A stretch of DNA of 64,000 nt from a virus (IMGVR_UViG_3300010149_000010); one strand, 5' to 3'; shown: positions 22,001 through 37,933, numbered from the stretch's first letter. The notes: a model not told the origin generated them from the letters alone. A program made the numbers and translations.

Positions 22001-23105
22001 CTTGAGACGCCCTATGATCTTTTAATGCTTCGAAAGATCTTTCTGCGCCAGCATCTATTTGTGCACCGAACTGCTTGGCTTCAAAAGATGCATTTGCAAT
22101 CCATGTTATTTTGCCTTTTATTGCATTCGCTAAATCCTTAGTCATCAAGTCTTCAATAGAGTCAGTGCTTTTGAAAACTAAACCACCCTTGAACTTTTCA
22201 GAAAGTTCACCCCTAGAACGACCTGTGGTTTCATGTATGAAATCTATCAGATCGTCGCTCGTAGCTTTGCCCGTTGATATCGCGTCAAACATCTTCCTTT
22301 TAGTTACAGTTTCTGGACTTAACGCTTTTCCTGCTTCATCTACCCCTATGCCGGCTTTAATTAATTTGTCTTCATCAGCTAATAAGAGCGCTTGAAACCT
22401 ATCCGTCTCTATTAAATAATCTTGAATCGAAGATTTTAAAGCGACGTCTGTCTCGACTAAAGGCTTTACTTCTTCAGCTAGCTGAAAAACGCTAATTTCA
22501 TTTTTGGCAAATTTATCTCTAATTTCAGCTAGCTCCGTGCTCAAGCTACCAGGCTCTTCTCCAATCTTCAACATGTCGACTAGAGTAGATATAAACTTAC
22601 CTTCTCTGTGACTTCTTACGTCTTGCTTTTTTCCTACTAATCTTCTTGGACCTCTTCTCGAAAGCGCTTCCTCCCCACCTGCTTTGTCTTGTGTTATCAA
22701 CTCAGGCTTAGGGCTAAACATATACCCCTTTTGCTCTGCAGGGTTGTATACAGCGACCTGGTGGATTATGTCACCACCTTTAAGACCTGTAGTTTCGATG
22801 TCCATTAAAATTGATTTTTTTAATATTTCATCTTTAGAAAGTTTTGTAGCAGGGCCTATTTTTTTTACATCATATTTTACTTCTCCAGAGCTCGTAACTC
22901 CAGTCGCTTCAGTAGCAGCAACAGAAATTATTTTGGCGTTTTTACCATAAGCAGCTTTCACTTTTTGAAGTATGTCGGCTTCTACTTGTTTCGGTTTTAA
23001 AGGAAACCCATATTCTTGTTTTACGCCGTCTACTTCTAACTCAACAAATATTATTTGGGTTGCATCTGTCGTATTAATATAGCTGTAATACTTATTCTTA
23101 ATCAT
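19020..23105 (-). CDS. Large protein with N-terminal DEDD exonuclease-like motif and C-terminal thermonuclease (SNase) domain
   Basis: ILMDIETTGL (ExoI-like) near N-terminus; DADTI..IRLAGIDAPET..QPY..DTTYGRQVGMIYVDGKNLNLELVRRGAA is the SNase signature. Confidence 0.75.
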   Translation of the reverse strand: MIKNKYYSYINTTDATQIIFVELEVDGVKQEYGFPLKPKQVEADILQKVKAAYGKNAKIISVAATEATGVTSSGEVKYDVKKIGPATKLSKDEILKKSILMDIETTGLKGGDIIHQVAVYNPAEQKGYMFSPKPELITQDKAGGEEALSRRGPRRLVGKKQDVRSHREGKFISTLVDMLKIGEEPGSLSTELAEIRDKFAKNEISVFQLAEEVKPLVETDVALKSSIQDYLIETDRFQALLLADEDKLIKAGIGVDEAGKALSPETVTKRKMFDAISTGKATSDDLIDFIHETTGRSRGELSEKFKGGLVFKSTDSIEDLMTKDLANAIKGKITWIANASFEAKQFGAQIDAGAERSFEALKDHRASQGLVPLDRKQFFEGFQYGRYQSELSALNLAENKNLLTQNPFYGVIEGVSSTSGDPFYTTGVEYNKQRSLALKSGDFSGMYKALLEHTQEGDVRDIIDMVKAQQSQLINEGIIDQKGPTSLSMEVQGRLFGFTEQLRLAEDSGEIASIDDAVKAMREAESHMALGDVAITEDKVLKESLDQLEAKRLVDIGGREGQELLAQAKAGKGAYFRFMTYGHLSNYYNQEARLVDGTVSKGLDEIGFRQRVGKSMLERIDRGAVTIRESKPGFRVVEQAKKIGDITSKEKITVGPQSKQVRITSFDEIFDHLNGLDTYKNVDKAEILEEAKKTYGRFLDSEGDIADSPGMRKAALQQSEAAPEVHRMFKERLSGGQFSEDFLRNIQRFMGSEAPRQKQIEVPTKALGSHINKETISDGLSKPKPQSNLSEVVPKALEGGSGSKKLPPVSSAAESVSRSAKRKSSLYLNKSIREIAKMHLGKYAAIAGGLAALSTKTSYEDEKSGQLIAPDLSKFLEAQSQFYGGNQESYVKSIKAKYGRIEGMQESGLGSLMRKALTDFGSPYQGPAYTQGVLEDHQMRRERHRYIQQKFGQRHFSEKGDIGFFFKKFISTAFRRQMGISKESKNIIFSGAERLSEDAYGGSLRGKNLIEYKFDKKRFNLNVQDADTISIQRKGNVNSPLSDFMGTGKQESMSIRLAGIDAPETAHADRKAQPYAEKAKAIARDLINKAKDVRLVTSPDDTTYGRQVGMIYVDGKNLNLELVRRGAAAYLPYKSKGKPPIYNQQAFESAQEYAQDSKRGMWKTGFFQAYKEIVRASGETTTFNTLANVRKVAKNANLMSIRSLMNQAQSSGGVTDQIMDDIKGVSEKLKAGQSKNSVSVFKPDRKYSLPHDLDLQSFGYNTNSILSHMDEMKSDLGGMVKNRGSKGSGAKLNSRSLRENNYHLVKDTLSAKKVHEANKIQNQESNEMKKIQKYKRQVAMESLQVAANHNMFNSPISHHRM

Positions 23106-23862
23106 CTAAAAGTATCTCTTCTGCGCCTTCTGGCGCTTCTATAGAATACAGAGCCTCTCTCAAACGAGATATCTCTTCTAGTACTCTCGAGTTATTATTA
23201 GACTCGCCCATCTTAATCATGAACTCTGCTTTGGTCTTTCTAGTTTGAACCAACTTGTCCAACCACTTCTCACGTCGCTTCTCCAATCTATCAATCATTT
23301 CTATGATTGGGTGTAGCTTAGTTGTTTCAGCTCTATCTCCATTCTCATTAAAACCAGTAATATCTGTCATCATAAAATCACGTCCATCACCTTTTTTATC
23401 GCCTTGAGATAAAACCATTAAGCTGCGGTTTTTATACAAGTCTATTAAAGCTAACTCATTCACTATAGACATTTCTACAGGATCATTAGGATCAACATCT
23501 AAGTGCTGCAAGTAGTCTATAATTTTTTGTTCTACAAAAAACTTTTCCATGACGCATTCGCGTCCAACAGGATAATTAGATATCGGCCCAAAGTCCAGAT
23601 TCCCTTCCACGTCCATATCCGGTATAGGGCAACGTTTAACGAACGGACATTTTTCAGGGCCTAGGCAGACTAAAGGCGCAGAAGCATGCACACCACTTTT
23701 TATTGCGCTAACAGACTGTTTGACGCGCGTTAATTTTTTACTGTCTAATCTTGCTAGATAACTGGAATACTCATCACTAGATTTTGTTATAGTTTCGAAA
23801 AATTTGCCTTGGCGCAATTCTTTTGAATCATCTTTTTCAATTTTTACAAGTGAGTCTTTCAT
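23098..23862 (-). CDS. Hypothetical protein, possible terminase small subunit
   Basis: 254 aa, first gene of late operon; Cys cluster (C..C..C..C) then helical region with KLHPIIEMIDRLEKRR. Confidence 0.35.
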   Translation of the reverse strand: MKDSLVKIEKDDSKELRQGKFFETITKSSDEYSSYLARLDSKKLTRVKQSVSAIKSGVHASAPLVCLGPEKCPFVKRCPIPDMDVEGNLDFGPISNYPVGRECVMEKFFVEQKIIDYLQHLDVDPNDPVEMSIVNELALIDLYKNRSLMVLSQGDKKGDGRDFMMTDITGFNENGDRAETTKLHPIIEMIDRLEKRREKWLDKLVQTRKTKAEFMIKMGESNNNSRVLEEISRLREALYSIEAPEGAEEILLDD

Positions 23863-24184
23863 GCAATCTTTTCCTTATATTTTATGTTTAATAATAGCAT
23901 ATTCCATTTTCTGGTTTAAAGGCAACGCCAGAATAGTATTTGATATGCATTTGACACCATTCAGGTGGTGGCTTTACACCAGCTTGATAACCAACTACCT
24001 CATGCTTTGGTCCTGGTGGCATTTAGTAGCAAGGTATAAAATATGGGGAGCTATGGCAATAACTTATTGTTTGCATGCTATCATTGAGTTAAGTTTGAAT
24101 TCTTACTTTTACAGCCCGCCCGCCATGAAACAGATTGCAGGTATCTTTTTACTGCTATCTGGCACTTATTTAATAATGAGGTGA
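23861..24184 (+). CDS. Small membrane protein (SMR/DMT-like, about 4 TM)
   Basis: Hydrophobic helices ending KQIAGIFLLLSGTYLI; start MQSFP. Confidence 0.5.
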   Translation: MQSFPYILCLIIAYSIFWFKGNARIVFDMHLTPFRWWLYTSLITNYLMLWSWWHLVARYKIWGAMAITYCLHAIIELSLNSYFYSPPAMKQIAGIFLLLSGTYLIMR

Positions 24185-25097: not shown

Positions 25098-25568
25098 ATG
25101 GATACTTGGCAAATCATCGCCATCATCTTCACAACCCTTCACCTTGCTTTCTTTTCACAATACTTTATCTTGGGATGCTCTATCTTAGAGCATATTGAGA
25201 ATAAGAAAATTGAAGCAGGTAACCGAGCATACGCTGCTTGGAAGCTTGGGTTTATCGCCCCTCGCAACCTTGCTTATATAAATGCAATCGCCTCTCAGCC
25301 TTTCTACCTCTTTGAGGTGGCAAAGTGGGAGAACCTTCAGGTCTATCATCATGTTGATGGAACCTGGTATGACATTGATTCTGGTAACTTAAGGGGTTAC
25401 GTCAAGATCAATAGGGAAGGCCAGATTGGTTTCAGTAAAAATCGGCATCTCGTAGAGAGTAAGTGTCGTATCATGCTCAGAGTTAGTGAGGGTGGGCTTT
25501 GCTATATCTTGGATCCTTCACTCAGAAAGAGTGAGAGAAACAGGTGGCATGAGCGCTGGTCCATCTAA
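25098..25568 (+). CDS. Hypothetical protein with N-terminal TM helix
   Basis: GAAGGACATTATT-ATG leader; hydrophobic N-terminus. Confidence 0.6.
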   Translation: MDTWQIIAIIFTTLHLAFFSQYFILGCSILEHIENKKIEAGNRAYAAWKLGFIAPRNLAYINAIASQPFYLFEVAKWENLQVYHHVDGTWYDIDSGNLRGYVKINREGQIGFSKNRHLVESKCRIMLRVSEGGLCYILDPSLRKSERNRWHERWSI

Positions 25569-25580
25569 ATTTTATCCTAG

Positions 25581-25660
25581 AAAAGTGCTATGTTTTCGGA
25601 AGCCCCCTTCGGGGCTTTTTTTAATTTACCCTACTTCAATGGATGCTTAAGCACATCCAT
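25581..25660 (+). promoter_or_regulatory. Intergenic module copy 1: intrinsic terminator + TTAATTT-N10-AATGG + hairpin
   Basis: AAGCCCC/GGGGCTT hairpin with T tract, then motif, then GGATG/CATCC hairpin; repeated at 27036 and 27854. Confidence 0.65.
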
Positions 25661-25732
25661 CTCTCATGTTGAGGGTAAAGCGCACCAGTGCAATGCTTCT
25701 ACGCAATTCTTCGTTGTCGGAAGGACATCATC

Positions 25733-27022
25733 ATGCGTAACTTATCTATCCTTGCCTTTATTGGCTTCCTATTCTTATTCACTGGCTGCGGCGTTGTGCG
25801 CAATGTGGCCTCAACCCTCAACCACGAGATCTGCGAAAAGAGCTACAACAAGTTTGTATGCCCAACCGTATCTGAACCAGCACATACACCCCTCTGCTAT
25901 GGGGTAAGTGTACGCACCACTGCCGGAGTCGATAACTTTGCCCATACCGATCAGGGGCCATTTTGCAAGAAACTCCAAAATGAGGCTACGCGTAAAGCCT
26001 TCCAATCAAAGCCAGGGACAACCTGCGCCATCAAAGGCAAGGGTAAATTTCAGAAGGTTGTATGTGCCGGCTTCCATCACGCTGGCGGCATCTTACTCAT
26101 CCTCTTGACGCTTCTTTGGGGGCGTGGTTTACGCGATCTTATGGTCGCTAGTGTAGAGAATGAAGATACCCGTCGCCCCTTTGATGGAATGTGGGAGGGG
26201 TGCAGAGTGATGATTATCGCCTGCATTGGGGCTGTGGTTTTACTAGCGTTAACCACAAACGCTTATAGCCAGCCTTGTGTCAACAAGGCTTATACAATAA
26301 GTCAACCGTCTGACATCTTGGAGTGCGAGATGACCCTCTCCACTCCAGAGAGCAACATGAGGTATACTTTAACGGCCCTAGATTTGGCTCAAGATAAAGT
26401 CTGCAATATACACCATCCGAACATGGGCATTGTAGCTTGCTACGACCTCTATGACGAGGCCCGCGCCCTCTTTAAGGCGAGGGCAGCCTTGTTGATGCTG
26501 AAAGAAGCGACACGAATCGTTGATATCAATGAAAGCGTCACGACCCCCACGCCATGTGGGGCAAATAAGCACTTGTGTGCTTCAGTGGGATGGGATAAGG
26601 CAAGTGGAATCGGCCTATTCTTTTCCTTCATCATTTCTTTACTCCTCTCTCGTCGCAAGACGAGAGAGGAGTGGTTCGGTTTTGAAACACTCCTGTACAG
26701 GGAGACGAGGAACGCCGTTTGGGCAATCGAGGACGAGCTATACAAAGCTCGTTGGATCGAGCGTGTGATTGAGGCTGCAATCACTCTCGCAGCCTTCTCT
26801 TTTGGGGGGCTCGTATTAGGGATTACATCCACCTTCTTGGCCCAGAAGAGATACGGGTGGGCGAGCATCTTCTGTGTGTTCGTATCAGTTCTCCTCTGGG
26901 GCTCTGCCCTGGAATGGATCCTTTTTGTACTCAAAGCATTAACGTGCTTCCTCTCAAACACTGAGGAGGGGTTCCGTTTCGTTAGGTGGGCGCTCCATCA
27001 GCGATGGAAACGTCAACTGTAA
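25733..27022 (+). CDS. Multi-segment exported/membrane protein with lipoprotein-type signal
   Basis: MRNLSILAFIGFLFLFTGC lipobox-like start, Cys-rich domains, several TM segments; GAAGGACATCATC-ATG leader. Confidence 0.6.
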   Translation: MRNLSILAFIGFLFLFTGCGVVRNVASTLNHEICEKSYNKFVCPTVSEPAHTPLCYGVSVRTTAGVDNFAHTDQGPFCKKLQNEATRKAFQSKPGTTCAIKGKGKFQKVVCAGFHHAGGILLILLTLLWGRGLRDLMVASVENEDTRRPFDGMWEGCRVMIIACIGAVVLLALTTNAYSQPCVNKAYTISQPSDILECEMTLSTPESNMRYTLTALDLAQDKVCNIHHPNMGIVACYDLYDEARALFKARAALLMLKEATRIVDINESVTTPTPCGANKHLCASVGWDKASGIGLFFSFIISLLLSRRKTREEWFGFETLLYRETRNAVWAIEDELYKARWIERVIEAAITLAAFSFGGLVLGITSTFLAQKRYGWASIFCVFVSVLLWGSALEWILFVLKALTCFLSNTEEGFRFVRWALHQRWKRQL

Positions 27023-27035
27023 GTAAAACAATCAA

Positions 27036-27115
27036 AAAAGTATTTATGTTTTTTGGAGCTCCCTTTTGGGAGCTTTTTTTAATTTACTCCTTTTAATGGG
27101 GGTTTAACATCCTCC
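27036..27115 (+). promoter_or_regulatory. Intergenic module copy 2: terminator + TTAATTT-N9-AATGG + hairpin
   Basis: GAGCTCCC-TTTT-GGGAGCTT plus T tract; shares upstream AAAAGT..TATGTTTT with copy 1. Confidence 0.65.
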
Positions 27116-27175
27116 TTTGTAATTCTGCATAAAAAAAAGTGTAACCTAAATGTAGCCAAATACAGGAGTATTACT

Positions 27176-27814
27176 ATGGCTTATAAAATCTTTAACAACA
27201 CAGGGCGAGCCCTGTGCAGCGAAAGAGAGAATGGTTTTATTGTTCTCTTCTCAGAAAAAAGAGATTTCAAAGACTACCAATTCAACGACCTCGACGGAAA
27301 AGCGATAGTAGAGGCGATCTGGAGTCCAAGCGGTTTTGTTGACGCTCACTATTTCTTCTTCAGCAAAGTCTGGTTTTCTGCAGACAAGGTGAGATCATTC
27401 AACGATCTGTGCATCGTAAAGCGTGATCCAGCGTACCCAGAGCGCTTCATCGAAACACCTGTCAAGGAACTTAAAGAGAGCGTATTCCAGGCAATTCTTT
27501 CATGTTCATTTGACGGTGTTTCTGATGACGAGCTTCAAGACCTTGCTAATCTTCGATCCACATTTGAAGATGATCTTCGTCGCGCAAGAGACGAGGTAGA
27601 GAGATTCGCGCATTCGTGGAGATGCAGGGATGGGAGCGTTCTCCCAGCACACGATCAAAAGGTCATTATCCAGCTCCGTGAAGAAGAAAAGAAGAGGGTC
27701 GACCCATCACTGTTGCTCCATTCCTATCACCACCTTATGATGGAGTTCAGAAGAGAGCTCCATCGCAGAGGACTAATTCTGAGAATGGGGAACATCGTTC
27801 CTTTTCAATATTGA
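27176..27814 (+). CDS. Hypothetical early protein
   Basis: 212-aa ORF with AGGAG SD. Confidence 0.7.
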   Translation: MAYKIFNNTGRALCSERENGFIVLFSEKRDFKDYQFNDLDGKAIVEAIWSPSGFVDAHYFFFSKVWFSADKVRSFNDLCIVKRDPAYPERFIETPVKELKESVFQAILSCSFDGVSDDELQDLANLRSTFEDDLRRARDEVERFAHSWRCRDGSVLPAHDQKVIIQLREEEKKRVDPSLLLHSYHHLMMEFRRELHRRGLILRMGNIVPFQY

Positions 27815-27853
27815 TCGCTAAAAGAGCCAACTGAAGATTAAGAAACACCTAAA

Positions 27854-27930
27854 GCCCTGGAGTGCACCACCGCACTTCGGGGCAGTTTTTTAATTTGTTT
27901 CCTTTAATGGAGAGATTATAGCAACTCTCC
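27854..27930 (+). promoter_or_regulatory. Intergenic module copy 3: terminator + TTAATTT-N9-AATGG + hairpin
   Basis: GCCCTGGAGTGC/GCACTTCGGGGC stem plus T tract; GGAGAG/CTCTCC hairpin; upstream of polymerase gene. Confidence 0.6.
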
Positions 27931-28002
27931 AGCCTTCAGAATAGAAGGTGCCATTAGGCTTCGTGGTATACACACAACCCCCTACAGAAAGGGACTGAGA
28001 CA

Positions 28003-31000
28003 ATGCGTAAAGCAATTTTCTCACTTTTCCTTGGCCTGCTGTGGGCAGCTAGCTGTTATTCAGTCTATGTTGCTCCTCTAGCATTGCCTGCGTCCGCCGT
28101 GGATGCAGCGCCAATTGTTCATCCTTCAGCAGAGGTCGCAAAACCTCTTGCTACCAACCGCACTGACAACGCAACTGCTGAGATTGACCATCTTCGCAGT
28201 ACTACTATTAACAGTGGAAGCTCTACCCCTAGTCAAGGTACCTTCCCCATTAATAACCCTAACGCATTACGTCCTCGTCGTAGAGGTATTATGCGTCGCA
28301 GAAAGCTGAAGTCACGAAAGGGCAACCGCCTTGTTAGTGATGCCTTTATCAAATTTGTCTTTGGTTACCACCGTGTAACTTACATGAGTGGCAATTGGCT
28401 GTGTTACGAAGAGACGCCTTACACAGAGGCAGACTTCAAAGTGAGTAAACCAGCTAAAGCTCGTAAGAAAGCGAAGAAATCCTGGCGTCAGCTAAAGGGT
28501 GAGGCAACACGTCTTTACCAGAAGGCTGCAAAGCTTCGTAAGCGCAATCCAGAATATCCGCCTGCAATAGCCTGTGCGGTGTTTGCCAAAGCACAAAAAC
28601 TTCATCATAAAGCCAATGATATGAAGAAGGCATTAAAAGAGGCTCAACCGACAGCACGTCAACAGCGTTCATTCCGACGCTCAGTGTTGAGAGCGGAAGC
28701 CAAAACTTGCGAGCAGTTTATCAAAGCTGAGTTAGTGAGCAATGTGGACCAAGCTAAAGAGCTGATTCAAAAGGTCCTCAGTGGTGACACTAATGGAGCT
28801 GCATTGAGACTATTACAAAAATCTCAATTAGGGCGCATTTACGTAAAATATGGTATCCTCCAGGCGCCGATGAAAGAGGAAGAAGTCGAGAGACCTACGA
28901 ACCCAGTAGTCAGACACATCAAAGTAGCAGAAACCCCTGCAAGGGTATGGACCCCATTGATGCGTGCAGCGATTATAGTTATTGCACCACTCATGCTAGG
29001 TATGGATGCGGATGTAGGTACCGTCGCAGAAGTCACTTATGCTAGTGCTTCTGGTGGTATTTTAATGATGACCCTGAAGAACGTCTTGAATACTCCAGCC
29101 CGTAAGCGTGAAGCAGCGCAAGACGGGTACAATCGTTACGCAGAGCAGTCGATCAAAGCTGCAAAGGGTAGTGAATGGGATGTTTTCTCCCTCATGCGAT
29201 TCAGTCGCAGTGGTAAAGGTGCGCCGATCACCAACGGCAAAGCCCACGATACTGACAAGCAGAAGGGTCGTGCTGTCCGTATTATTCAAGATAGCATCGG
29301 CGGGGCGTACTGCCCAAAGGTAAAGTCATTCGCCAGGATGCTTGGAATTGAACTCGGCGTGGACAACTGTCTCCGTTATGAAGTTGACGACCAAATGGAT
29401 GAGGTACTAAAAGCTGACGTCGTCGAGATCTTAATGGCAGCCAGCTTTGTTATTCTTTGTGACGGCTTTGCTGTTCACAAGAGCATTGCTCGCCCCTTCA
29501 TTGAGTACGGGGAGACTATGTTCGGCAATGCTGTAGCTGTGCGCTCTTACTTCCGCAGTCTAATCACCACACCAGAGCTCTACACGGTCAACCAGGACTT
29601 ACCTATCTTCTTGGGTGACCTCGATGAGCTTATGGGATGGGCGGAGAACGATGGTGGCGCTGTGCATACCAATCGCCTGAGCGTGAGCATGCAGTTCCGA
29701 GGGATCGCGAAAGTGCTTGAGGCGAAGTACCGCATCTTGTCCAAGGGCATCACAACTTCTGCTAAGGTTATTGCTGACATCACTGATGACGTCGACAAGC
29801 CTGTCTTCGTCAACTATGAAGGCGATGAGGAAGGCCACATCAAGGGTGAGGTTCGCCTAAGCAAAAAGGTTGACGAGTGCATCCGTGTTGCAGTAGAGGA
29901 AGAATTCAACGCTCTGCATGCTGTTAACACGGCGACTAAAGAGCAGCTTTGCTTAGTTGCAGGAATTGGCCCTAAGACCGCTGAAAAGATCGTTGAAGCT
30001 CGTAATGCTGCAGGTGGGGCATTCGCTGACATGGATGCGTTCTACAACGTGTCAAGGCGCCTTGATCCCAGCAACCCGGACGCGCTTCGCGTCTTGCGTT
30101 GGTCTTTTGGCCACAAGGGCCGTGTTTACTCAGTGGGCCTATTCCTTGACAAGGGTTGTCTCAAGGGAGAAGACAAGAATGCTTGGGACTGGAACAAGCT
30201 CAACTTCTTCGGCGTCAACGGCCAAAATGTCGACTTCTGGTCTATCGCTATCGACCAGATTGGCGGCAAGATCAGCTTGGGCTGGCAGGTAGTCCAGTTA
30301 TTAGACGCTGACTTCATCGGCGGTTTGTTCAAGAACACTGATGGTAGTCTTGGAATCGCGGCCCAAAAGTTAGCGCGCCAGATCGACAATGCAATCGAGC
30401 AGGAACACCCTCTTTGTAAGCATCTCCTTGATGCAATTGAAGACAAGGGCGGTGACATTGAAAACTTGATGTCAGCCGTAAAAGCTATTTCCGTGCTTCA
30501 GGGCCTCGGGAAGACCGCCTCTAAGCGCATCAGCAATGGTCTCGGTGCGAAGGCAGGATCTTACTATGTTCAGATGATCGACATGGGTGGCGACTGGGTA
30601 ATTATCAAAACACCCAAGGCCAAGGATGGCAAGGGTTACAAGCGATGGGCTACTTGCTTCTTCGGTCGTACACCGAACCAGGGGCACGAGACCGTCCGCG
30701 CACCTATGGCGCTATCACCAACTTATGTCGGTGGATTCTTGAGGGATTATCTTGATAATGGCTTTGACGCTGTAGAGAAGCACGGCAAACAAGCCGTAAA
30801 ATTCGTTATGGGTCTCAATGATGCTTGTGGTCATGATACCGATGTAGTACGTCTTCGCTGCCGTGCGATCTTGACGATGCTCCCAGCTGTAATTGATGGA
30901 ATTGCTTTAGTCGACTCAACTCTACAACAAAAGGTATGCGGCGACAATGATGGCGACCGTAACATGATCAGCTTCGACAAGATGCTCGTTGCAATCGCCA

Positions 31001-34000
31001 AGCATATCACCCGTAAGCATCCTACTACATTCCCTGCGCGCGAGCAGTCAAAGAAGTTCGTTCTCAATACCTTTGATGATGTGGTCTTGGAGAAGGGCGG
31101 CTGGCTTCGTAGCTTTAACAAGTACATGAAAACAGGTGACTCTTCGGAGTTGCTTCTCATTTCCAAGTTCCTTTCTGCCCCCGGTGGGACTCCAGGGCAA
31201 GGGAACGTGGGTGGTGTGACGCAATGTGCTGCTGCACCAATGCTTTTCTGTGACTGGCACTGGGTCAAGAAGGATGGCAAAGATGTCTACGAGCCAGTCA
31301 ATCCAGCCGCTCGCAAGTTGGTCAATTATCTTTACTTGTGCCAGCAGATCGCCATTGACCGCCAAAAGTATTACTATTTGGCGCCTTCGCTGCTGCATTG
31401 GTTCTTTGCTGACCTTGAGGTTGGTGACGCAGTCATCAAAGAGTTGAAGGCAGGCGGCCATGCGGACACTAATTGGCTTCACAGTCACTACCCAATTCAG
31501 GGTGCTGCTGATATGTCGTTCGAAGAATACCAAGCCGCTTGGAAAAATGGTACATTGCCTGTGATCTCAGAGATCATCCCAGGCATGGGTAAAGGCGCTA
31601 TGGGCGGTCAATCTGTCGCTCCGATGATGTACTCCAACGGCCCGCTTTACGTGTGGACCGCGTGGCAGGTTAACGGTATTAACCTCGGCTTTGATTACTT
31701 CGATAAAGACAGGATGGTTGAGCTTTCTGGGTTCTTTGACGAAGAGATTGCTCAGACTGCTGACTGGCAGGGTATCATTGACCACCTCAATCTCAGTGTC
31801 TCAGCTGAACAGCTCGAGGAAAGCTGGGTGTGGCCTGGCTACATCACGGGTTGGGTCAACACCAACTTCCGTGAGTCTCAAGATCTCTCTCCAGAGACCT
31901 TCCAGTCTGCTCGCATCCATGCCAACAATGTGTGGCTCGAGAAAATGGAGCAGGCAGGTATCGATGCTGACCCAGCCGTAACTCTCGTTGAGAGTGGGTT
32001 GGCTGACGTTCTCAAGGAAAAAGCTGGCGATTATGCAGTGGAAATGCCTGCATGGGGCACACGCCTGCTAGCAACTACAATCTACCGCAGCTATGTTGCA
32101 GGTAGCTCTGAGGCTGCTGAGGCTATGAGCCAAAGCGCTCGTCTGCAAACCGACCATCACGCGTCAGGCTCCGACAAACTTTCATTCCTCCGACAAGCTC
32201 TTACGTCACGCGACATGGACGTTTCTGTTGGGGATATGAAGATTATGGAGTCCATAAAGGATCTTCGTTTCGTTTGGGCTAAAGCGTTGCAGAATGACAA
32301 AATGTCGGACGAGCGTCGACTGCAAGTCCTCTGCGCAATGATGCACTTCGGCATTACTGTCATCGCAGACTGCATCGAGGAGCTTGAGAACGATAAGACT
32401 TCTCAGATTGCTCAGAACTTCATCTGGGCACTTGAGGACCACGCAATTGCTGATATTGCCGCTCTAACTACCGCTGATAAGTGGAAAGAGTGGCGTGACG
32501 CTAATGATGCTACCTACAGCGGGCTAGAAGCAAAAAATCGCCGTGAGATGATGGATACCTGCCGAAAGCTCATGAATCGCGATGGATTTTACCACTGGAT
32601 TAGCCAACAGAACCTCAACTCCCTCAAGGCAGAGGATATCGCTACCTGGTTGGTGATGGATGGTGAGGAAGCTCACAGCAAGATCATAGACTTTATCGGT
32701 TCTGACTTCTTCGGTGCAATTGGTGAGGCTTGGTCTCGTCAAGAGCTCAAGGGCTCGCGCAACAGCGTTGAGGATGAACTGATGGATATCATCACCGATC
32801 TTATGGAACTTCCAGTTGACGACAACTTCATGGGTTGTGTAGAGGGATACTCTCGTGACTTAATCCAAGAAATCAGGGACGATGAGCTGAGGCTCCAGTC
32901 TGAAGAGGTTTCGGATGAAGCACAGATGGCATGGTACTCGCTTAATGCGAGTGAGTATGAGCGGCATGTTGCCGCGATCACTCGCCCAATCACATCGTTG
33001 ATCCGCTTGGTAAAACACCAGATGCGTGTGCTTGAGCACAACGTTGACAACGGTGCAAACCAGGAAGACGAGATTGATGTTTTCTGGCCAACCATCAAAG
33101 CCGCTCTCTTTGGCTCCCACAAAGAGCTCGATGATGAAACTGGTGAGTGGACTGACGTCACCCACGTCGAAAGTCGTATTGTTTACGAGCTACCCGTTCA
33201 GCACATCGCGACCATGAACCTTGCGGCTCTCGAGCAGGGCTATGACGTCGAGATTCTCGTTGATATGATTGACAATCCAAAGTCTTTTTACGAAGACGAG
33301 GACGGTAATGTAGAGCTGCCTTCGGAGCCAGAGGGTTACTATTACACTCGCAAGGGGTACATCCACCTCAGCGCAATCATGACAAAAATGGCGCTTGAGG
33401 TCGAGTCTCGTGACGATGTATTGCAGTGGCTGATCGCTCAGTTCAAAGGCGGTGTTGGTCACGTCACAACCAGCAAGCACTTAACCATGGCGTATGGTTC
33501 AGCTGAGGGTCGTGATCACTTCTGGTTCGTTCCAGAGGAGGAAGCTTACCCTCAGTACCACAACGACCCGCAGGTGCTCCAGGTCCAAAAGACCTTCGAG
33601 TCTTGTTACGCTGAGACCGTCACAGTCAGCTACCTCCATGACGATGCTGAAGAAACCCTTGAGGCGCTAGAGTGTTTCGAGAATCCTGAAGCATTTTCGC
33701 CAGGGGATGTTCAATACTATGAGGACTATATGAAGGAGATGTTTGAGGTGCAGATGTATCTCCCACCTCTCTTCGGCGGCCGCTCTAACTGGGACGAGCT
33801 ATATGATGGTAAGTATAGTAAGTTCTATGACGAGCAGCTAATTATGTCACCATACAAGTTGTTGCGCACTTACAGCTTCATGATGGAGGGCCAAGATGTT
33901 AGCCAGATGTCTCTTCCAGCTACGGTGCGTGACTTCCAGAATCTAGTCTATGGTTACACTGTTGGAGACAGCAAAGGCCAAAGCCAGGGTGTGCGCAGCA

Positions 34001-34527
34001 AAGAGGCCTATAAGCGCTCTGGTCGCCAGCCTAGAAACACAGCGCTTAAGGATAACATGACTAAGAAGTCATGTGAGGATTGGACTTGGGCTGGTGTGCA
34101 GAAACCAATTACCTCACAGCTCGAGGTCAAGTTCAATGGTTCTGAAGTTGTTGGTGCTGAGAACAACTTGTGCGACATCAGCATCCGTGGCTACCAAAAC
34201 CACACCTTTGATGAGTGTTGGCGCGGTGCGTACTCGTTGGTTCGTTTCACACCTAGCCTTCTCTGGAGCTTTGCCAACGTGATGGAACCTGGTGAATTCC
34301 AAGAGATTAACGCTAAGAGCATCGCTAAGGTTGGCGCTTCTTCTATCCGTCGTCACTGTATTGGTTTCCGCAAAGCCAACTTTACAGAGATGGTTGAGGG
34401 AGTAAAAGTTACGTCGTTAAAGATGGACCCAGCAATGGTTCCCTACCTTTTCGGCATCCTTGCGGATCAAGAGGAGATCGAGATCGGCATGGACGCTCTC
34501 AATAGTCCTGACCGTCCTAACGACTAA
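28003..34527 (+). CDS. Single-subunit two-barrel RNA polymerase (YonO/cellular RdRP-like) with inserted HhH domain
   Basis: Ordered motifs NDGGA, MQFR..SKG, LDKGCLK, SLGWQVVQLL, GRTP, catalytic GDNDGD (DNDGD at 30943-30957), GNVG, IAIDRQK; ComEA-like HhH VNTATKEQLCLVAGIGPKTAEKIVEAR. Confidence 0.85.
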   Translation: MRKAIFSLFLGLLWAASCYSVYVAPLALPASAVDAAPIVHPSAEVAKPLATNRTDNATAEIDHLRSTTINSGSSTPSQGTFPINNPNALRPRRRGIMRRRKLKSRKGNRLVSDAFIKFVFGYHRVTYMSGNWLCYEETPYTEADFKVSKPAKARKKAKKSWRQLKGEATRLYQKAAKLRKRNPEYPPAIACAVFAKAQKLHHKANDMKKALKEAQPTARQQRSFRRSVLRAEAKTCEQFIKAELVSNVDQAKELIQKVLSGDTNGAALRLLQKSQLGRIYVKYGILQAPMKEEEVERPTNPVVRHIKVAETPARVWTPLMRAAIIVIAPLMLGMDADVGTVAEVTYASASGGILMMTLKNVLNTPARKREAAQDGYNRYAEQSIKAAKGSEWDVFSLMRFSRSGKGAPITNGKAHDTDKQKGRAVRIIQDSIGGAYCPKVKSFARMLGIELGVDNCLRYEVDDQMDEVLKADVVEILMAASFVILCDGFAVHKSIARPFIEYGETMFGNAVAVRSYFRSLITTPELYTVNQDLPIFLGDLDELMGWAENDGGAVHTNRLSVSMQFRGIAKVLEAKYRILSKGITTSAKVIADITDDVDKPVFVNYEGDEEGHIKGEVRLSKKVDECIRVAVEEEFNALHAVNTATKEQLCLVAGIGPKTAEKIVEARNAAGGAFADMDAFYNVSRRLDPSNPDALRVLRWSFGHKGRVYSVGLFLDKGCLKGEDKNAWDWNKLNFFGVNGQNVDFWSIAIDQIGGKISLGWQVVQLLDADFIGGLFKNTDGSLGIAAQKLARQIDNAIEQEHPLCKHLLDAIEDKGGDIENLMSAVKAISVLQGLGKTASKRISNGLGAKAGSYYVQMIDMGGDWVIIKTPKAKDGKGYKRWATCFFGRTPNQGHETVRAPMALSPTYVGGFLRDYLDNGFDAVEKHGKQAVKFVMGLNDACGHDTDVVRLRCRAILTMLPAVIDGIALVDSTLQQKVCGDNDGDRNMISFDKMLVAIAKHITRKHPTTFPAREQSKKFVLNTFDDVVLEKGGWLRSFNKYMKTGDSSELLLISKFLSAPGGTPGQGNVGGVTQCAAAPMLFCDWHWVKKDGKDVYEPVNPAARKLVNYLYLCQQIAIDRQKYYYLAPSLLHWFFADLEVGDAVIKELKAGGHADTNWLHSHYPIQGAADMSFEEYQAAWKNGTLPVISEIIPGMGKGAMGGQSVAPMMYSNGPLYVWTAWQVNGINLGFDYFDKDRMVELSGFFDEEIAQTADWQGIIDHLNLSVSAEQLEESWVWPGYITGWVNTNFRESQDLSPETFQSARIHANNVWLEKMEQAGIDADPAVTLVESGLADVLKEKAGDYAVEMPAWGTRLLATTIYRSYVAGSSEAAEAMSQSARLQTDHHASGSDKLSFLRQALTSRDMDVSVGDMKIMESIKDLRFVWAKALQNDKMSDERRLQVLCAMMHFGITVIADCIEELENDKTSQIAQNFIWALEDHAIADIAALTTADKWKEWRDANDATYSGLEAKNRREMMDTCRKLMNRDGFYHWISQQNLNSLKAEDIATWLVMDGEEAHSKIIDFIGSDFFGAIGEAWSRQELKGSRNSVEDELMDIITDLMELPVDDNFMGCVEGYSRDLIQEIRDDELRLQSEEVSDEAQMAWYSLNASEYERHVAAITRPITSLIRLVKHQMRVLEHNVDNGANQEDEIDVFWPTIKAALFGSHKELDDETGEWTDVTHVESRIVYELPVQHIATMNLAALEQGYDVEILVDMIDNPKSFYEDEDGNVELPSEPEGYYYTRKGYIHLSAIMTKMALEVESRDDVLQWLIAQFKGGVGHVTTSKHLTMAYGSAEGRDHFWFVPEEEAYPQYHNDPQVLQVQKTFESCYAETVTVSYLHDDAEETLEALECFENPEAFSPGDVQYYEDYMKEMFEVQMYLPPLFGGRSNWDELYDGKYSKFYDEQLIMSPYKLLRTYSFMMEGQDVSQMSLPATVRDFQNLVYGYTVGDSKGQSQGVRSKEAYKRSGRQPRNTALKDNMTKKSCEDWTWAGVQKPITSQLEVKFNGSEVVGAENNLCDISIRGYQNHTFDECWRGAYSLVRFTPSLLWSFANVMEPGEFQEINAKSIAKVGASSIRRHCIGFRKANFTEMVEGVKVTSLKMDPAMVPYLFGILADQEEIEIGMDALNSPDRPND

Positions 34528-34695
34528 TTTTGATAGGGGTTGAAATCCCCCTTTAGCTGTATCAGGTCATATACCACTGATCTGTTAGTAAAATGCTTGG
34601 CACGAGTAAGGGGTTCACGTCCCGCTAAGCGTCTAATGCAGACTTACTCAAAAAACAACCCTACCCCCATTATCAATTGCAAGAAAGGAAAAATC

Positions 34696-35112
34696 ATGCA
34701 AGAGATGCAAGACAAAACTCTCGTCGAGATCGTAAAGGCCTATAAGGGGGCCTTTATATATGCTCCAGGCGGCACAGTCAACATTGGCTGTGTTATGTTC
34801 GATGGCCCCTCAAACGCGAAGAAGGCTGTTCCTAAAAAAGCAGGGTCAGCAGAAGCCGAGAAACCCAAGGCTGTTCGTCGTCGCAAGGCTACTACCAAAG
34901 TTGATGAGAAGGCTGAGCCACCTAAGGGTGATTCAGCTTCGCCTCCACCAGTTGACACTAATGACGGTGACGATAACGAAGGTGATGGTTCAGCGCCCGA
35001 CCCAGCAGCGGCCACGAGTTGGGGCTCTCGTGGTGCGGGGCCTGCTGACTCAGCGACACCCACCTCCCCATTTTCTCGCCCTCGTCGTCGGGAACCCAAC
35101 AACGGGGCTTGA
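34696..35112 (+). CDS. Hypothetical low-complexity protein
   Basis: AAAGGAAAA then MQEMQDK; Lys/Pro/Asp-rich tail. Confidence 0.55.
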   Translation: MQEMQDKTLVEIVKAYKGAFIYAPGGTVNIGCVMFDGPSNAKKAVPKKAGSAEAEKPKAVRRRKATTKVDEKAEPPKGDSASPPPVDTNDGDDNEGDGSAPDPAAATSWGSRGAGPADSATPTSPFSRPRRREPNNGA

Positions 35113-35220
35113 CCCCCGTCTTGGGTTTCTGCCCTCCCCTCTAACCGTTCCACCTTCACAATTCTATAGGCTTTATAACTAGCTATTATCCTGTAGTCTT
35201 ATCTTCAATAGCTCATTGCC

Positions 35221-35322
35221 CCGCCAGTTGACTCCTTCTACCTAGTTACTCCGCCAAGCAAGTTGACTCCGCGCGCGGAGCCAGGGGCTGCAAGCAGCCC
35301 TGCGAGCAAGCTCGCTGCCTGG
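35221..35322. repeat. Direct repeats plus branched palindromes
   Basis: AGTTGACTCC x2 and AGTTACTCC; CTCCGCGCGCGGAG palindrome; CCAGG..CCTGG enclosing two CAAG-loop hairpins. Confidence 0.75.
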
Positions 35323-35410
35323 TGATCAAACAAGGTGATTATTAATCTTTTTTTTAATTTGCTCATGCAATTATTAAGAAGATTCAAACTTTGTTAAAGA
35401 AGGAGCCGAC

Positions 35411-35884
35411 ATGGCTAATCAAGAACTAAAACTTCACGACGACGCTTCCGAGCTTAGTCTGCCTGAGGCACGCCTAGCGCGCCTTAAGGTTCTCCGTGAT
35501 AAAGTAGACGAAAAAGCCGCTTGGAGCGGGCGAGGCGATAAAAAGCCTGCCCGTTCCCTACTTGTAGTGGACGGTGCAGATGCGAGTCAAATCGCTTCGT
35601 ACCTGACCAGCAAGGGCCAATCATCTAGAGTGACCTTCGAGGTCACCGAGCATAAGTTACGCGGGATCTTTGACGATCATATCCGTGAGCTTGAGCGCGA
35701 GATCGCAGAGGCGGAGAAGGCAGCAATGCCCGATCCGATGCAGGCCGTTCGAGAGATGCAAGCAGCAATGCAAGCACAGCAAGCCCAATTCATGCAAATG
35801 ATGGTGGGCATGATGAGTGGTAACACTTCTCCCGAGGCTCCTGCTCCTGCCGAGACTGCTCCTGAGGCTCCTGCTGAGTCGTGA
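35411..35884 (+). CDS. Hypothetical protein with Met/Gln-rich coiled coil
   Basis: Strong AAGGAG SD, 157 aa. Confidence 0.75.
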   Translation: MANQELKLHDDASELSLPEARLARLKVLRDKVDEKAAWSGRGDKKPARSLLVVDGADASQIASYLTSKGQSSRVTFEVTEHKLRGIFDDHIRELEREIAEAEKAAMPDPMQAVREMQAAMQAQQAQFMQMMVGMMSGNTSPEAPAPAETAPEAPAES

Positions 35885-36272
35885 TTTTAAGTGAAAGCTG
35901 TTCTTCGGAGCAGTTAGTAGCAAACTCGTTAACCGAAAGGTGTGACGAGACGAGACGTAGTGTCTCAAGCCTAATTCCCCTTGGCGTAAAAATGGGGCGA
36001 AAAACTTTTCCTGTCGGAACGAAAGGATCTTCATCATGACCTACTGGGTTGATGAAAGAGGTGTTGTGCACTTCGAAAATCCACGAGCTCAATAAAAGCT
36101 TTATGGTCGCAGCTATGCGTAAATAGTGGGTAGCTATACCCTTGAAATAGCCGGAGCTATGATAGCTTCGTTAGTCAGAGAATGACAAACAATCTGATTT
36201 AGACTTTTATTATAAAAAAGTCGGCAGCCTTATTAACGGACGGACGTAATGTCGCCAGTTTCAATAATAAGC

Positions 36273-36375
36273 AGTGTCGTCGGAAGCCCTTAGGGGTGGA
36301 AGACCTGATGAGTCTAGTAGTTCATTCTGCTAGCATCGCTTTAATTAGTGATGTCCTTTAGGGGAACGAAACACT
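36273..36375 (+). ncRNA. Type III hammerhead ribozyme with four-way-junction stem II
   Basis: AGTGT/ACACT stem III, GTC cleavage triplet (after 36278), GTC/GAC stem I, CTGATGA 36305-36311, GT/AC stem II base, GAAA 36368-36371. Confidence 0.8.
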
Positions 36376-37033
36376 TTTCTCATCAAGACAGCTAACGCTG
36401 GGCCCAGTGATTTTCTAAACACTTAAAAAAAAGAACATTAGAATTTTCAACGGAAGCCAGATGCGCCTTCGTAAAGAAAAGCATAGTGCTCGCTTAGACC
36501 TTCGGGTCTTACCTGCGGAAATGAATGATAAGTTCATGTTCTAAAGGATACCAATGAGAAATGGTAAGCGGGTTACTGGCACAAGGTCGCAACTTGTGTC
36601 GCTGGAGATAAAACCAGTACCCTTAGACAAGGGGTGTGCGCGGTTTGTAGAAAAAACAAACCCATATGCGCCTCATGTCAGCAGGTCAAAATACAGTGGC
36701 TATTATCAGGCATGGTAAGTAAGTCAATAAAGAATTTCTCGGGGCTGTTCTCCCCACTTCAGTAATGTAGTACTTACTGTAATAATAGGGAACCAAGGGT
36801 CAGCCAAATAAGGCCCTGGCATGGAAGCTCCTTAGCGGGAGTGGGAAAATGCAAAACCAGCAAATCGATTAGCTAGCCTTAGCGGGCAAGTTACCGAAGA
36901 GCCGGGGATCTGTAATAGTGGTGTATTACAGACACAGTGCGAATTCCAAAAGGGGGAGCTGCCGTAGATATCTGCGGTAACGAACTTGATTAGGTGTTGC
37001 GTATTTGTGCCTTGTACGATTATATTGTGCAAG

Positions 37034-37866: not shown

Positions 37867-37933
37867 TCGCGTATAGTGTAAAGGTACACGCCATAGTGAT
37901 ATGGAAATGTAGGTTCAAGTCCTTCTACGTGGG
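37867..37933 (+). tRNA. Degenerate tRNA/pseudo-tRNA with shortened anticodon loop
   Basis: TCGCGTA/TACGTGG acceptor, GTGT/ACAC D-stem, CCATA-GTGA-TATGG arm, GTAGG-TTCAAGT-CCTTC T-arm (one mismatch). Confidence 0.5.

What the first reader, a model, noticed from the sequence alone, without database searches (positions are those of the whole stretch)
28003..34527. 2174-aa single-chain RNA polymerase of the YonO/cellular-RdRP type with DNDGD active site
Seen: the ordered motif set DG, QxR..KG, second Lys, LxxQ, RxP, GDxDGD, NxG and IDxxK. Known: this set defines two-barrel single-subunit polymerases (SPbeta YonO, QDE-1/RDR RNA-silencing polymerases). Unusual: large size, Asn at the variable position of DxDGD, and about 1000 aa of unassigned acidic C-terminal sequence. 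Inference: a divergent phage RNAP expressed early to drive later transcription.
Basis: partly seen in the sequence, partly recalled or inferred. Interest (0 to 1): 0.78.

Follow-up and report, generated by a model that had tools for sequence, protein, structure and literature searches.

The report
Giant YonO-like phage RNA polymerase
A 2,174-residue protein of an uncultured ~159-kb marine phage is, by predicted structure and invariant catalytic motifs, a single-chain "two-barrel" RNA polymerase distantly related to the Bacillus prophage enzyme YonO; it founds a new giant family and sits in a fast-changing gene island framed by unusually conserved regulatory cassettes.

Summary
The motifs are invariant in about 35 homologues that are only 19-25% identical overall. 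An AlphaFold model of residues 395-1420 (pLDDT 83) matches only single-chain two-barrel RNA polymerases in two independent fold searches: QDE-1, RDR2, P74-26 gp62/P23-45 gp64, P23-45 gp96 and crAss phi14:2 gp66. A profile comparison with the YonO family aligns the catalytic loop (E 6e-5). YonO itself reads FDNDGD, so the Asn is a shared YonO-clade trait, not an oddity.

New features:
- All members found are 1,700-2,350 aa.
- A ComEA-like HhH insert sits in the first barrel, in this subfamily only.
- Most members have a signal-peptide-like N-terminus.
- A folded, acidic C-terminal part of about 775 aa has no fold match.

Context: the gene lies in the non-structural arm, in a GC3-rich island whose proteins are 17-32% identical between phages with 70-91% identical backbones. 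Its terminator-promoter cassettes and the RNAP leader are 82-92% identical in DNA.

Best reading: an active, probably non-virion, DNA-dependent RNAP for later phage genes. The timing, template and virion status are untested. I rate it a new variant of a known kind.

The parts
28003..34527 (+). Whole gene: 2,174-aa single-chain two-barrel RNA polymerase (P0001)
   Evidence: ORF; homologues; model; fold searches
28003..28122 (+). N-terminal signal-peptide-like hydrophobic segment (aa 1-40: MRK, about 20 hydrophobic residues, Cys18)
   Evidence: Hydropathy and comparison of 31 family members, about 22 of which have such a segment. This segment and the leader are about 75% nt identical in L016, although that RNAP core is only 24% identical
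28123..29187 (+). Basic N-terminal region (aa 41-395; pI 9.9-11.9, net +33), poorly conserved, no assigned fold
29578..30279 (+). First (beta-like) double-psi beta-barrel, aa 526-759, carrying D550-G551, Q564/R566, K581-G582 and K721
   Evidence: Model strands and pLDDT 84-93. Whole-chain alignments to RDR2, QDE-1, gp62 and gp96, and an expansin DPBB hit on model 132-355. Invariance:
29824..30102 (+). ComEA-like (HhH)2 DNA-binding module (aa 608-700) inserted inside the first barrel; present in this subfamily only
   Evidence: Pfam HHH_3 E 8.8e-9. ComEA, Tex and TEFM structural hits on model 237-308. The K581-K721 spacing is 132-140 aa here against 48-77 aa in other family members
30550..30990 (+). 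Second (beta'-like) double-psi beta-barrel, aa 850-996, with R889-T-P891
   Evidence: Isolated DPBB structures (7dww, 7dbo, 2pmz_A, 8w9z_C) align to model 456-617 at Z 5.8-6.9, rmsd 2.5-3.0
30943..30957 (+). Catalytic metal-binding loop D981-N-D983-G-D985
   Evidence: Invariant D, D, G, D in 35 sequences; the x position is N, S or A, never aromatic. Aligned with YonO D535-N-D537-G-D539 by hhalign, prob 65%, E 6e-5
31306..31368 (+). Long helix ending in invariant Q1115..I1118-D-x-Q-K1122 (candidate bridge-helix equivalent)
   Evidence: Model helix 708-725; invariance. The only segment that hhalign aligns with P23-45 gp64 (VDRQK) and gp96 (TDRKK). YonO has IDFAK
32263..34524 (+). Acidic C-terminal part (aa 1421-2174): helical bundle plus alpha/beta domains, kept in length across the family, no known fold found
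   Evidence: Model pLDDT 80.8. Foldseek gave nothing at E<=0.001. VIA gave only generic helical hits, Z<=8.2. There are 880-1,140 aa after IDxxK in almost all members
27854..27994 (+). Conserved upstream cassette and leader of the RNAP gene: GC hairpin 27854-27883, T-run/AATTT 27884-27897, CCTTTAATGG 27901-27910, hairpin 27909-27930, hairpin 27933-27948, SD-like GAAAGGGA 27987-27994
   Evidence: 92% nt identity to L001 and about 75-90% to L006, L009 and L016, although those RNAPs are 24-32% identical in protein (except L006, 84%)
25598..25650 (+). Sister cassette upstream of the 429/444-aa membrane-protein gene
27055..27115 (+). Sister cassette upstream of the 212-aa gene
   Evidence: 89% identical to L009 660-744
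35339..35361 (+). Partial sister cassette (T-run/AATTT only) upstream of the 157-aa gene

Best explanation
The gene encodes an active, Mg2+-dependent, single-chain two-barrel RNA polymerase. It is a very distant, giant relative of the SPbeta enzyme YonO and of the P23-45 gp64-type phage polymerases.

Shown here:
- Two double-psi beta-barrels lie in one chain. The first carries the invariant Lys/Arg set (R566, K581, K721). The second carries the invariant Asp triad D981/D983/D985.
- A long helix with invariant IDxQK follows the second barrel.
- A ComEA-like HhH dsDNA-binding module is inserted in barrel 1.

Inferred:
- It copies DNA into RNA. Every phage enzyme of this fold tested so far does so (YonO, gp64, gp96, gp66).
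- It is probably not packaged in the virion. It is made from its own terminator-promoter cassette in the non-structural arm.
- It then transcribes later phage genes independently of the host polymerase. A likely target is the very long, gap-free structural operon on the opposite strand, by analogy with YonO, which transcribes the SPbeta late genes as one operon (PMC5467207).

My odds: active two-barrel RNAP about 0.9; DNA-templated about 0.85; non-virion with a middle/late role about 0.5-0.6.
For: Fold:
- The model of aa 395-1420 has pLDDT 83.4 and pTM 0.81.
- The top 11 Foldseek PDB hits are all QDE-1 or RDR2 (E 3.6e-6 to 1.4e-4). Next come P74-26 gp62, phi14:2 gp66, P32 gp64 and the Pol IV-RDR2 complex.
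- The independent VIA search over 48,161 chains gives ZmRDR2 (Z 10.2, 466 aligned), P74-26 gp62 (Z 9.7, 443 of 592), P23-45 gp96 (Z 9.4) and QDE-1 (Z 9.3, 522). Below these come multisubunit RNAP large subunits and isolated DPBB domains.
- BFVD returns phage proteins annotated as RdRP, P23-45 gp64 and crAss-like RNAP segments.

Sequence:
- The catalytic and basic residues are invariant across about 35 homologues of 19-25% identity.
- hhalign of the family profile against a YonO-family profile gives prob 65%, E 6e-5, and aligns DNDGD with DNDGD.
- YonO-family invariant residues D249-G250, R266, K271-G272, Q355, R492-x-P494, D535/537/539, N591-x-G593 and I624-D-x-x-K628 occur in the same order as ours.
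- gp64 shows the same order: GDG, QVR..WKG, RRP, DYDGD, VDRQK.

Context:
- The window is a phage: TerL, portal, MCP.
- The gene is in the + strand arm with small genes and tRNAs, divergent from the structural operon.
- It has its own upstream terminator and a conserved cassette.
- A complete 161.8-kb relative has no sigma70 region 2 domain and no Rpb1 domain 2, the active-site domain of multisubunit RNAP large subunits.
Against: - There is no biochemical, expression or virion-proteome evidence.
- No sequence library recognises the protein: Pfam finds only HhH, PHROGs nothing, PDB sequences nothing.
- The YonO link is confined to about 87 columns at 65% probability.
- A signal-peptide-like N-terminus is odd for a cytoplasmic enzyme and fits ejected or membrane-inserting virion proteins.
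- The size equals that of the virion RNAP gp66.
- The RNAP is far more divergent between sister phages (32%) than their backbones (70-91%). That is unexpected for an enzyme that must recognise promoters across a conserved genome.
- No candidate target-promoter motif was found in the window.
Confidence: 0.75

Rival explanations
1. It is a virion-packaged RNA polymerase that is ejected with the DNA and transcribes the first (pre-early) genes, like crAss phi14:2 gp66, N4 vRNAP or the P23-45 gp96 domain.
For: Its size (2,174 aa) is nearly that of gp66 (2,180 aa; bioRxiv 10.1101/2020.03.07.982082). Most family members have a conserved N-terminal hydrophobic segment followed by a strongly basic region, as in membrane-inserting ejection proteins. 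It has large extra domains of unknown fold. Its high divergence relative to the backbone recalls crAss vRNAPs. It matches gp66 and gp96 structurally.
Against: The gene is not in the structural/late operon. It lies in the opposite-strand arm among small genes and tRNAs, with its own terminator-promoter cassette. The structural operon already holds another candidate cargo protein with a DFDAD motif: P0095, 2,395 aa, between 1,465-aa and 3,464-aa proteins. The structural match to gp66 is the weakest of the polymerase hits (Z 5.5, rmsd 6.6). The nearest sequence relative, YonO, is non-virion (PMC5467207).
Confidence: 0.17
2. It is an RNA-templated polymerase, as the RDR/QDE-1 enzymes are in RNA silencing. 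It would copy phage or host RNA, for instance from the adjacent 2-kb non-coding array, into dsRNA or antisense RNA.
For: The best Foldseek E-values and the top VIA Z are to QDE-1 and RDR2. A highly conserved non-coding region lies just downstream: 36192-36886, 87% identical to L001 and more conserved than the coding backbone.
Against: Every phage or prophage member of this fold tested so far is DNA-dependent (YonO PMC5467207; gp64 and gp96 PMC10770324; gp66 10.1101/2020.03.07.982082). QDE-1 itself prefers ssDNA (same preprint). The inserted ComEA-type HhH module is a dsDNA binder.
Confidence: 0.05
3. It is a catalytically dead two-barrel scaffold reused as a structural or other protein.
For: No sequence library recognises it. 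More than half of the protein has no assigned function.
Against: The Asp triad, both barrel-1 lysines, RxP and IDxQK are invariant in about 35 sequences that otherwise diverged to about 20% identity. That pattern is the signature of selection on catalysis.
Confidence: 0.03

Closest known systems
YonO of Bacillus prophage SPbeta (single-peptide DNA-dependent RNAP; PMC5467207)
   Same: It is the only known family with a detectable sequence link: hhalign of the two family profiles gives prob 65%, E 6e-5 over the catalytic loop. It has the same DNDGD variant with Asn. It has the same ordered motif set: DG, xR..KG, K, xQ..Q, RxP, DNDGD, NxG, IDxxK. It is phage-encoded, one chain, and its gene sits next to the structural/late operon.
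   Different: YonO is 839 aa against 2,174 aa. It has no HhH insert, no N-terminal hydrophobic or basic region, and no 775-aa acidic C-terminal part. Several YonO-family members hit Pfam RdRP PF05183, whereas this protein does not. The hosts differ too: Firmicutes prophages against uncultured marine phages of about 160 kb.
P23-45 gp64 / P74-26 gp62 non-virion RNAP (PDB 8f5m, 8f72; PMC10770324)
   Same: The second-best structural match: Z 9.7, 443 of 592 residues aligned. It has the same motif order, including a nearly identical [IV]DRQK helix motif. It is an early-expressed non-virion phage enzyme, in a phage that also has a virion RNAP in the tail/cargo region. That layout may be paralleled here by P0095.
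   Different: gp64 is 616 aa and reads DYDGD rather than DNDGD. Apart from a 20-27-residue motif, there is no significant sequence similarity (prob 3.6%).
QDE-1 / RDR2 eukaryotic RNA-silencing polymerases (PDB 2j7n, 7w84)
   Same: The best fold matches: Foldseek E 3.6e-6; VIA Z 9.3-10.2 with 466-522 residues aligned. They are single-chain two-barrel enzymes.
   Different: Identity is 9-12%, with no Pfam RdRP hit. They read D[YL]DGD and are eukaryotic enzymes working in dsRNA synthesis.
crAss-like phage phi14:2 gp66 virion RNAP (PDB 6vr4)
   Same: A giant (2,180 aa) single-chain two-barrel phage RNAP with large extra domains. Foldseek E 2e-3.
   Different: It is the weakest polymerase match (Z 5.5, rmsd 6.6). 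Its motif is DFDID, its gene lies in the structural block, and the protein is in virions. Here the gene lies in the non-structural arm.
T4-type PeSL 'promoter-early stem-loop' mobile regulatory cassettes (recalled from memory: Arbiol, Comeau & Krisch 2010; not read here)
   Same: In both, stem-loop plus promoter-like cassettes flank genes in a hyperplastic region. Here the cassettes are far more conserved than the genes between them.
   Different: The sequences differ, and it is not known which polymerase reads these cassettes. The cargo here includes a 6.5-kb polymerase gene.

Membership tests
Two-barrel (double-psi beta-barrel) RNA polymerase superfamily | Two DPBB domains forming the catalytic core | tested here: met
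   Model pLDDT 83. Whole-chain matches only to two-barrel RNAPs. Isolated DPBB structures align to model 456-617 (Z 5.8-6.9), and an expansin DPBB aligns to model 132-355 (Z 5.6).
Two-barrel (double-psi beta-barrel) RNA polymerase superfamily | DxDxD metal-binding triad in the beta'-like barrel | tested here: met
   D981, D983 and D985 are invariant in 35 sequences. They lie at model 587-591 inside barrel 2 and align to the YonO triad.
Two-barrel (double-psi beta-barrel) RNA polymerase superfamily | Conserved basic residues (two Lys and an Arg) in the beta-like barrel | tested here: met
   R566, K581 and K721 are invariant and lie within barrel 1 strands and loops. Equivalence to beta-subunit lysines is inferred from order and from the YonO alignment.
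Two-barrel (double-psi beta-barrel) RNA polymerase superfamily | Asp triad placed at the interface of the two barrels; bridge helix across the cleft | not testable with these tools
   Model coordinates cannot be inspected. Only ranges and secondary structure are returned. Helix 708-725 with invariant IDxQK is the candidate bridge helix.
Two-barrel (double-psi beta-barrel) RNA polymerase superfamily | Template-dependent NTP polymerisation | not testable with these tools
   Needs biochemistry.
YonO family (SPbeta-like single-peptide RNAP) | Significant sequence homology to YonO over the catalytic core | tested here: inconclusive
   The profile-profile comparison gives prob 65%, E 6e-5, but over 87 columns only. 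The extended alignment puts DG, R, KG, K, Q and DNDGD in register but at low confidence. There is no PHROG hit at all.
YonO family (SPbeta-like single-peptide RNAP) | DNDGD variant of the catalytic loop | tested here: met
   YonO reads FDNDGD and the family consensus is FDNDGD. Our family reads GD[NSA]DGD.
Cellular RdRP (Pfam PF05183; QDE-1/RDR) | Match to the Pfam RdRP model | tested here: not met
   No PF05183 hit at E<=1. The six-frame search of the relative genome also found none, but its control did not ring.
Cellular RdRP (Pfam PF05183; QDE-1/RDR) | Fold similarity to QDE-1/RDR2 catalytic core | tested here: met
   Foldseek E 3.6e-6; VIA Z 9.3-10.2.
crAss-like virion RNAP (gp66 type) | Gene in the structural/cargo block and protein present in virions | tested here: not met
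   The gene is in the opposite-strand non-structural arm. Virion presence is not testable.
P23-45 gp64-type non-virion RNAP | Fold and motif order of gp64/gp62 | tested here: met
   Z 9.7 to 8f5m with 443 of 592 residues aligned. Motif order is seen in gp64. The [IV]DRQK segment is aligned.
P23-45 gp64-type non-virion RNAP | Significant sequence homology to gp64 | tested here: not met
   hhalign prob 3.6%, over 27 columns only.

The most novel reading that the evidence does not exclude
The polymerase gene is the cargo of a swappable, cassette-framed hypervariable locus. Sister phages whose backbones are 70-91% identical carry RNAP alleles only 24-32% identical. These alleles sit between near-identical terminator-promoter cassettes, a conserved leader and a conserved N-terminal hydrophobic peptide. 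Whole polymerase alleles, with their membrane-protein companions, would then be exchanged or driven apart by an arms race. The enzyme would be a membrane-tethered second polymerase in a two-polymerase cascade, and its first polymerase would be the DFDAD giant protein in the structural operon.
Probability: 0.3. Interest if true: 0.8.

Novelty: new variant of a known kind. Interest (0 to 1): 0.62.

Why it matters
Only a handful of single-chain two-barrel RNA polymerases have been characterised (YonO, P23-45 gp64/gp96, crAss gp66, QDE-1/RDR). They are central to ideas about how cellular RNA polymerases and RNA-silencing polymerases arose.

- This family adds a deeply divergent branch that sequence libraries miss. 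It shows that the YonO-type DNDGD active site also occurs in giant enzymes of about 2,000 residues in marine and freshwater phages. It also offers new accessory modules to study: an HhH insert inside a barrel, and a large acidic C-terminal part.
- The genomic setting raises a testable question about how a phage can tolerate replacing its own polymerase. The protein is extremely divergent, while the flanking regulatory DNA is almost frozen.
- It also gives candidate promoter DNA for in vitro work.
- In practical terms, such enzymes are potential new transcription tools.

Tried and rejected
1. Sequence libraries: Pfam found only HhH, PHROGs nothing, PDB sequences nothing with a single sequence or a family profile, and GenBank phages nothing by tblastn.
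2. hhalign of the family profile against single sequences of P23-45 gp64 and gp96 aligned only the IDRQK-like motif, at prob 3.6% and 0.2%.
3. The C-terminal model (aa 1400-2174) gave no Foldseek hit at E<=0.001, and VIA returned only generic helical bundles.
4. A search for short stand-alone or split forms with the core profile (278-1,148 aa) found only a fragment.
5. A search for a second, genome-wide promoter class (k-mers shared by intergenic regions) found nothing beyond the island cassette.
6. The sigma-70 consensus scan gave no enrichment: 18 sites against 18.9 expected.
7. The DFDAD giant protein P0095 showed no similarity to P0001 or the family profile except the HhH motif, and had no PHROG or PDB hit. 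Whether it is a polymerase remains open.
8. The context of the most distant family members was uninformative, because the contigs are short.
9. Host assignment failed. The only genome-collection hits are two MAG contigs (Limisphaerales, Polynucleobacter) that look like binned phage DNA.
10. Searches of the relative genome for T7-like RNAP and RdRP Pfam families were void, because the controls did not ring.
11. Rfam found only tRNAs.

Full report
**The observation.** The window holds an uninterrupted ORF at 28003-34527 on the + strand: ATG start, 2,174 codons. A GAAAGGGA ribosome-binding-like sequence lies nine bases upstream.
- D550-G551
- Q564-x-R566 ... K581-G582
- K721
- L759-x-W-Q762
- R889-T-P891
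- G980-DNDGD-985
- N1068-V-G1070
- I1118-DRQ-K1122

Residues 1141-2174 are strongly acidic, with pI about 4.6.

**More than chance.** Two database searches found a family of about 35 large proteins of 1,700-2,350 aa from marine and freshwater metagenomes. These include Tara Oceans and JGI samples. Identity to the query falls to 19-25%. Even so, D550, G551, Q564, R566, K581, G582, K721, W761, Q762, P891, D981, D983, G984, D985, G1070, Q1115, I1118, D1119, Q1121 and K1122 are invariant or nearly so. The middle residue of DxDGD is N, S or A, never aromatic.

**What sequence libraries say.** Almost nothing.
- Pfam sees only a helix-hairpin-helix domain at 636-685.
- PHROGs finds nothing.
- PDB sequence searches find nothing, with either the protein or a family profile.
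- GenBank phages have no relative by tblastn.
- IMG/VR has three loci and the GTDB genome set has two MAG contigs.

**Structure.** An AlphaFold2 model of residues 395-1420, built on the 35-sequence alignment, is confident (pLDDT 83.4, pTM 0.81).
- Foldseek against the PDB returns only single-chain two-barrel RNA polymerases at the top. QDE-1 and RDR2 score E 3.6e-6 to 1.4e-4. P74-26 gp62, crAss phi14:2 gp66, P32 gp64 and the Pol IV-RDR2 complex follow.
- VIA-align, which does not depend on Foldseek, was run over 48,161 representative chains. It gives ZmRDR2 (Z 10.2, 466 residues), P74-26 gp62 (Z 9.7, 443 of 592), P23-45 gp96 (Z 9.4) and QDE-1 (Z 9.3, 522). Large subunits of multisubunit RNAPs and isolated double-psi beta-barrels come next.
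- The isolated barrels align to model 456-617. DNDGD (model 587-591) therefore lies in the last loop of the second barrel. An expansin barrel aligns to model 132-355, the first barrel, which carries R566, K581 and K721.
- ComEA, Tex and TEFM HhH modules align to model 237-308, a domain inserted inside barrel 1.
- BFVD returns metagenomic phage proteins annotated as RNA-dependent RNA polymerase, P23-45 gp64 and crAss-like RNAP segments.
I could not inspect coordinates to measure the inter-barrel interface.

**Link to YonO.** I fetched yonO from SPbeta.
- YonO itself reads FDNDGD. A 15-member YonO-family alignment keeps D535, D537, G538 and D539 invariant, with Asn in the consensus.
- Profile-profile comparison of our core alignment with that family gives probability 65%, E 6e-5, over 87 columns centred on the catalytic loop.
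- A relaxed alignment also puts DG, R, KG, the second K and the Q motifs in register, at low confidence.
- P23-45 gp64 shows the same motif order (GDG, QVR..WKG, RRP, DYDGD, VDRQK). hhalign aligns only its VDRQK helix with our IDRQK.
- YonO is a processive DNA-dependent RNAP that transcribes the SPbeta late genes as one operon (PMC5467207). gp64 is a non-virion RNAP made from pre-early transcripts of a tape-measure-fused virion RNAP (PMC10770324). gp66 is a virion RNAP (bioRxiv 10.1101/2020.03.07.982082).

**What is new in the protein.**
- All members found are giant. A profile search among proteins of 278-1,148 aa found only a fragment.
- The (HhH)2 insert is specific to the query's subfamily. 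The K581-K721 spacing is 132-140 aa there, against 48-77 aa elsewhere. Pfam finds HHH_3 in 6 of 24 members.
- About 22 of 31 members begin with a signal-peptide-like hydrophobic segment. In the query this is followed by a very basic region of about 350 aa.
- About 880-1,140 residues follow the IDxxK motif in nearly all members. The model of 1400-2174 is folded (pLDDT 80.8) but matches nothing specific.

**Genomic setting.** The window is phage DNA. On the - strand lie a capsid protein, portal, large terminase and a 1,361-aa protein with a staphylococcal-nuclease domain. TerL is at most 28% identical to any cultured phage. The polymerase gene lies in the divergent + strand arm, with small genes, three tRNAs, ThyX and others. 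The same order is kept in a Tara relative. A complete 161.8-kb relative genome has no sigma-70 region 2 domain and no Rpb1 domain 2, the active-site domain of multisubunit RNAP large subunits.

**A conserved cassette.**
- Each of the three genes starting at about 25.7, 27.2 and 28.0 kb is preceded by a GC hairpin with a T-run, then TTTTTAATTT, a few bases, yCyTTyAATGG and a second hairpin. The 35.4-kb gene has a partial copy.
- The 12-mer occurs four times, all on the + strand and all in this island, against 0.37 expected.
- The same four-site layout occurs in the Tara relative and in L006, L009 and L016.
- In the complete relative genome the strict pattern occurs only three times, all in the island.
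- The cassette is therefore the control element of the polymerase gene and its neighbours. It is not a genome-wide promoter class. RNAalifold supports the hairpins, with compensatory changes at five pairs.

**A hypervariable, GC3-rich island.**
- GC3 of the island genes is 0.47-0.57, against 0.27-0.33 for most backbone genes. The relative shows the same contrast.
- Between the window phage and the Tara relative, backbone proteins are 70-91% identical. The island proteins, including the RNAP, are only 17-32% identical.
- At DNA level the island shows no similarity except the cassettes and leader (82-92%) and the non-coding stretch at 36192-36886 (87%).
- In L016 the RNAP core is 24% identical. 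Yet the leader plus the first 80 or so codons are about 75% identical in DNA, and the downstream non-coding array matches again.
- Two readings fit this pattern. One is allele replacement by recombination through conserved cassettes, as proposed for T4-type PeSL elements (recalled from memory, not read here). The other is very fast divergence under conflict. I could not separate them.

**A possible second polymerase.** I fetched it (P0095). It lies between 1,465-aa and 3,464-aa proteins, downstream of the sheath gene, and also carries a ComEA-like HhH motif. It has no detectable similarity to P0001 beyond that motif, and no library hit. Its orthologue in the relative is 57% identical.

**Verdict.** The protein is almost certainly an active single-chain two-barrel RNA polymerase of the YonO/gp64/QDE-1 clade. 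It most likely copies DNA. It is more likely non-virion (about 0.5-0.6) than virion-packaged (about 0.17). I expect it to serve host-independent transcription of later genes, perhaps the long gap-free structural operon. This rests on analogy and gene position only. It is a new, giant variant of a known kind of enzyme. The most unexpected aspects are its setting in a cassette-framed hypervariable island and its signal-peptide-like N-terminus.

Noticed in passing
window 25598-25650, 27055-27115, 27854-27955, 35339-35361; L001 7464, 8150, 9892, 17071: A conserved composite cassette: GC hairpin plus T-run, TTTTTAATTT, yCyTTyAATGG, then a second hairpin. It precedes four transcription units of the island. 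It is 82-92% identical between phages whose intervening genes are 17-32% identical, and it occurs only in the island of a complete 161.8-kb relative genome.
   Followed up: yes
window ~25100-35900: A GC3-rich (0.47-0.57 vs 0.27-0.33), hypervariable island. It holds the RNAP, a 429/444-aa multi-pass membrane protein with a lipoprotein-like N-terminus, and three small proteins. The same compositional contrast is kept in the Tara relative.
   Followed up: partly
window 36192-36886 (and 35921-35977): A non-coding stretch that is 87-90% identical to the relative L001, more conserved than the neighbouring coding backbone (69-78%). It is also matched in L009 and L016. Rfam finds only a weak tRNA-like hit at 37867-37933 (37 bits), which ARAGORN did not report.
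   Followed up: partly
L014:14400-21587 (same phage, about 15.6 kb beyond the window start): A 2,395-aa protein (P0095) with GDFDAD and a ComEA-like HhH motif. It sits between 1,465-aa and 3,464-aa proteins in the tail/cargo part of the structural operon. It is a candidate ejected protein or virion RNAP, with no library hit, and it was not folded.
   Followed up: partly
window 23860-23863: The first gene of the - strand structural operon (254 aa) and the first + strand gene (107-aa membrane protein) start back to back on an overlapping CATG. The promoters of both arms must therefore lie inside coding sequence. The arrangement is conserved in L001.
   Followed up: partly
window 19020-23105 (-): A 1,361-aa protein with a staphylococcal-nuclease domain (Pfam SNase, E 1.5e-21) near the head of the structural/packaging operon, just upstream of the 366-aa protein and TerL.
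   Followed up: no
window 27901-27906 with 27989-27994: RNAalifold pairs the invariant CCCUUU/UCCUUU of the cassette with the AAAGGG of the Shine-Dalgarno region of the RNAP gene. This could mean translational control, but no covariation supports it.
   Followed up: partly
window 47517-48101, 52999-53478, 54519-55256, 55576-56484(-), 62225-62965: Other recognisable genes: 2OG-Fe(II) oxygenase, SLT transglycosylase, ThyX, an N-acetylmuramoyl-L-alanine amidase and a ThiF/E1-like enzyme. The last is part of the ubiquitin-like cassette that others noted.
   Followed up: no
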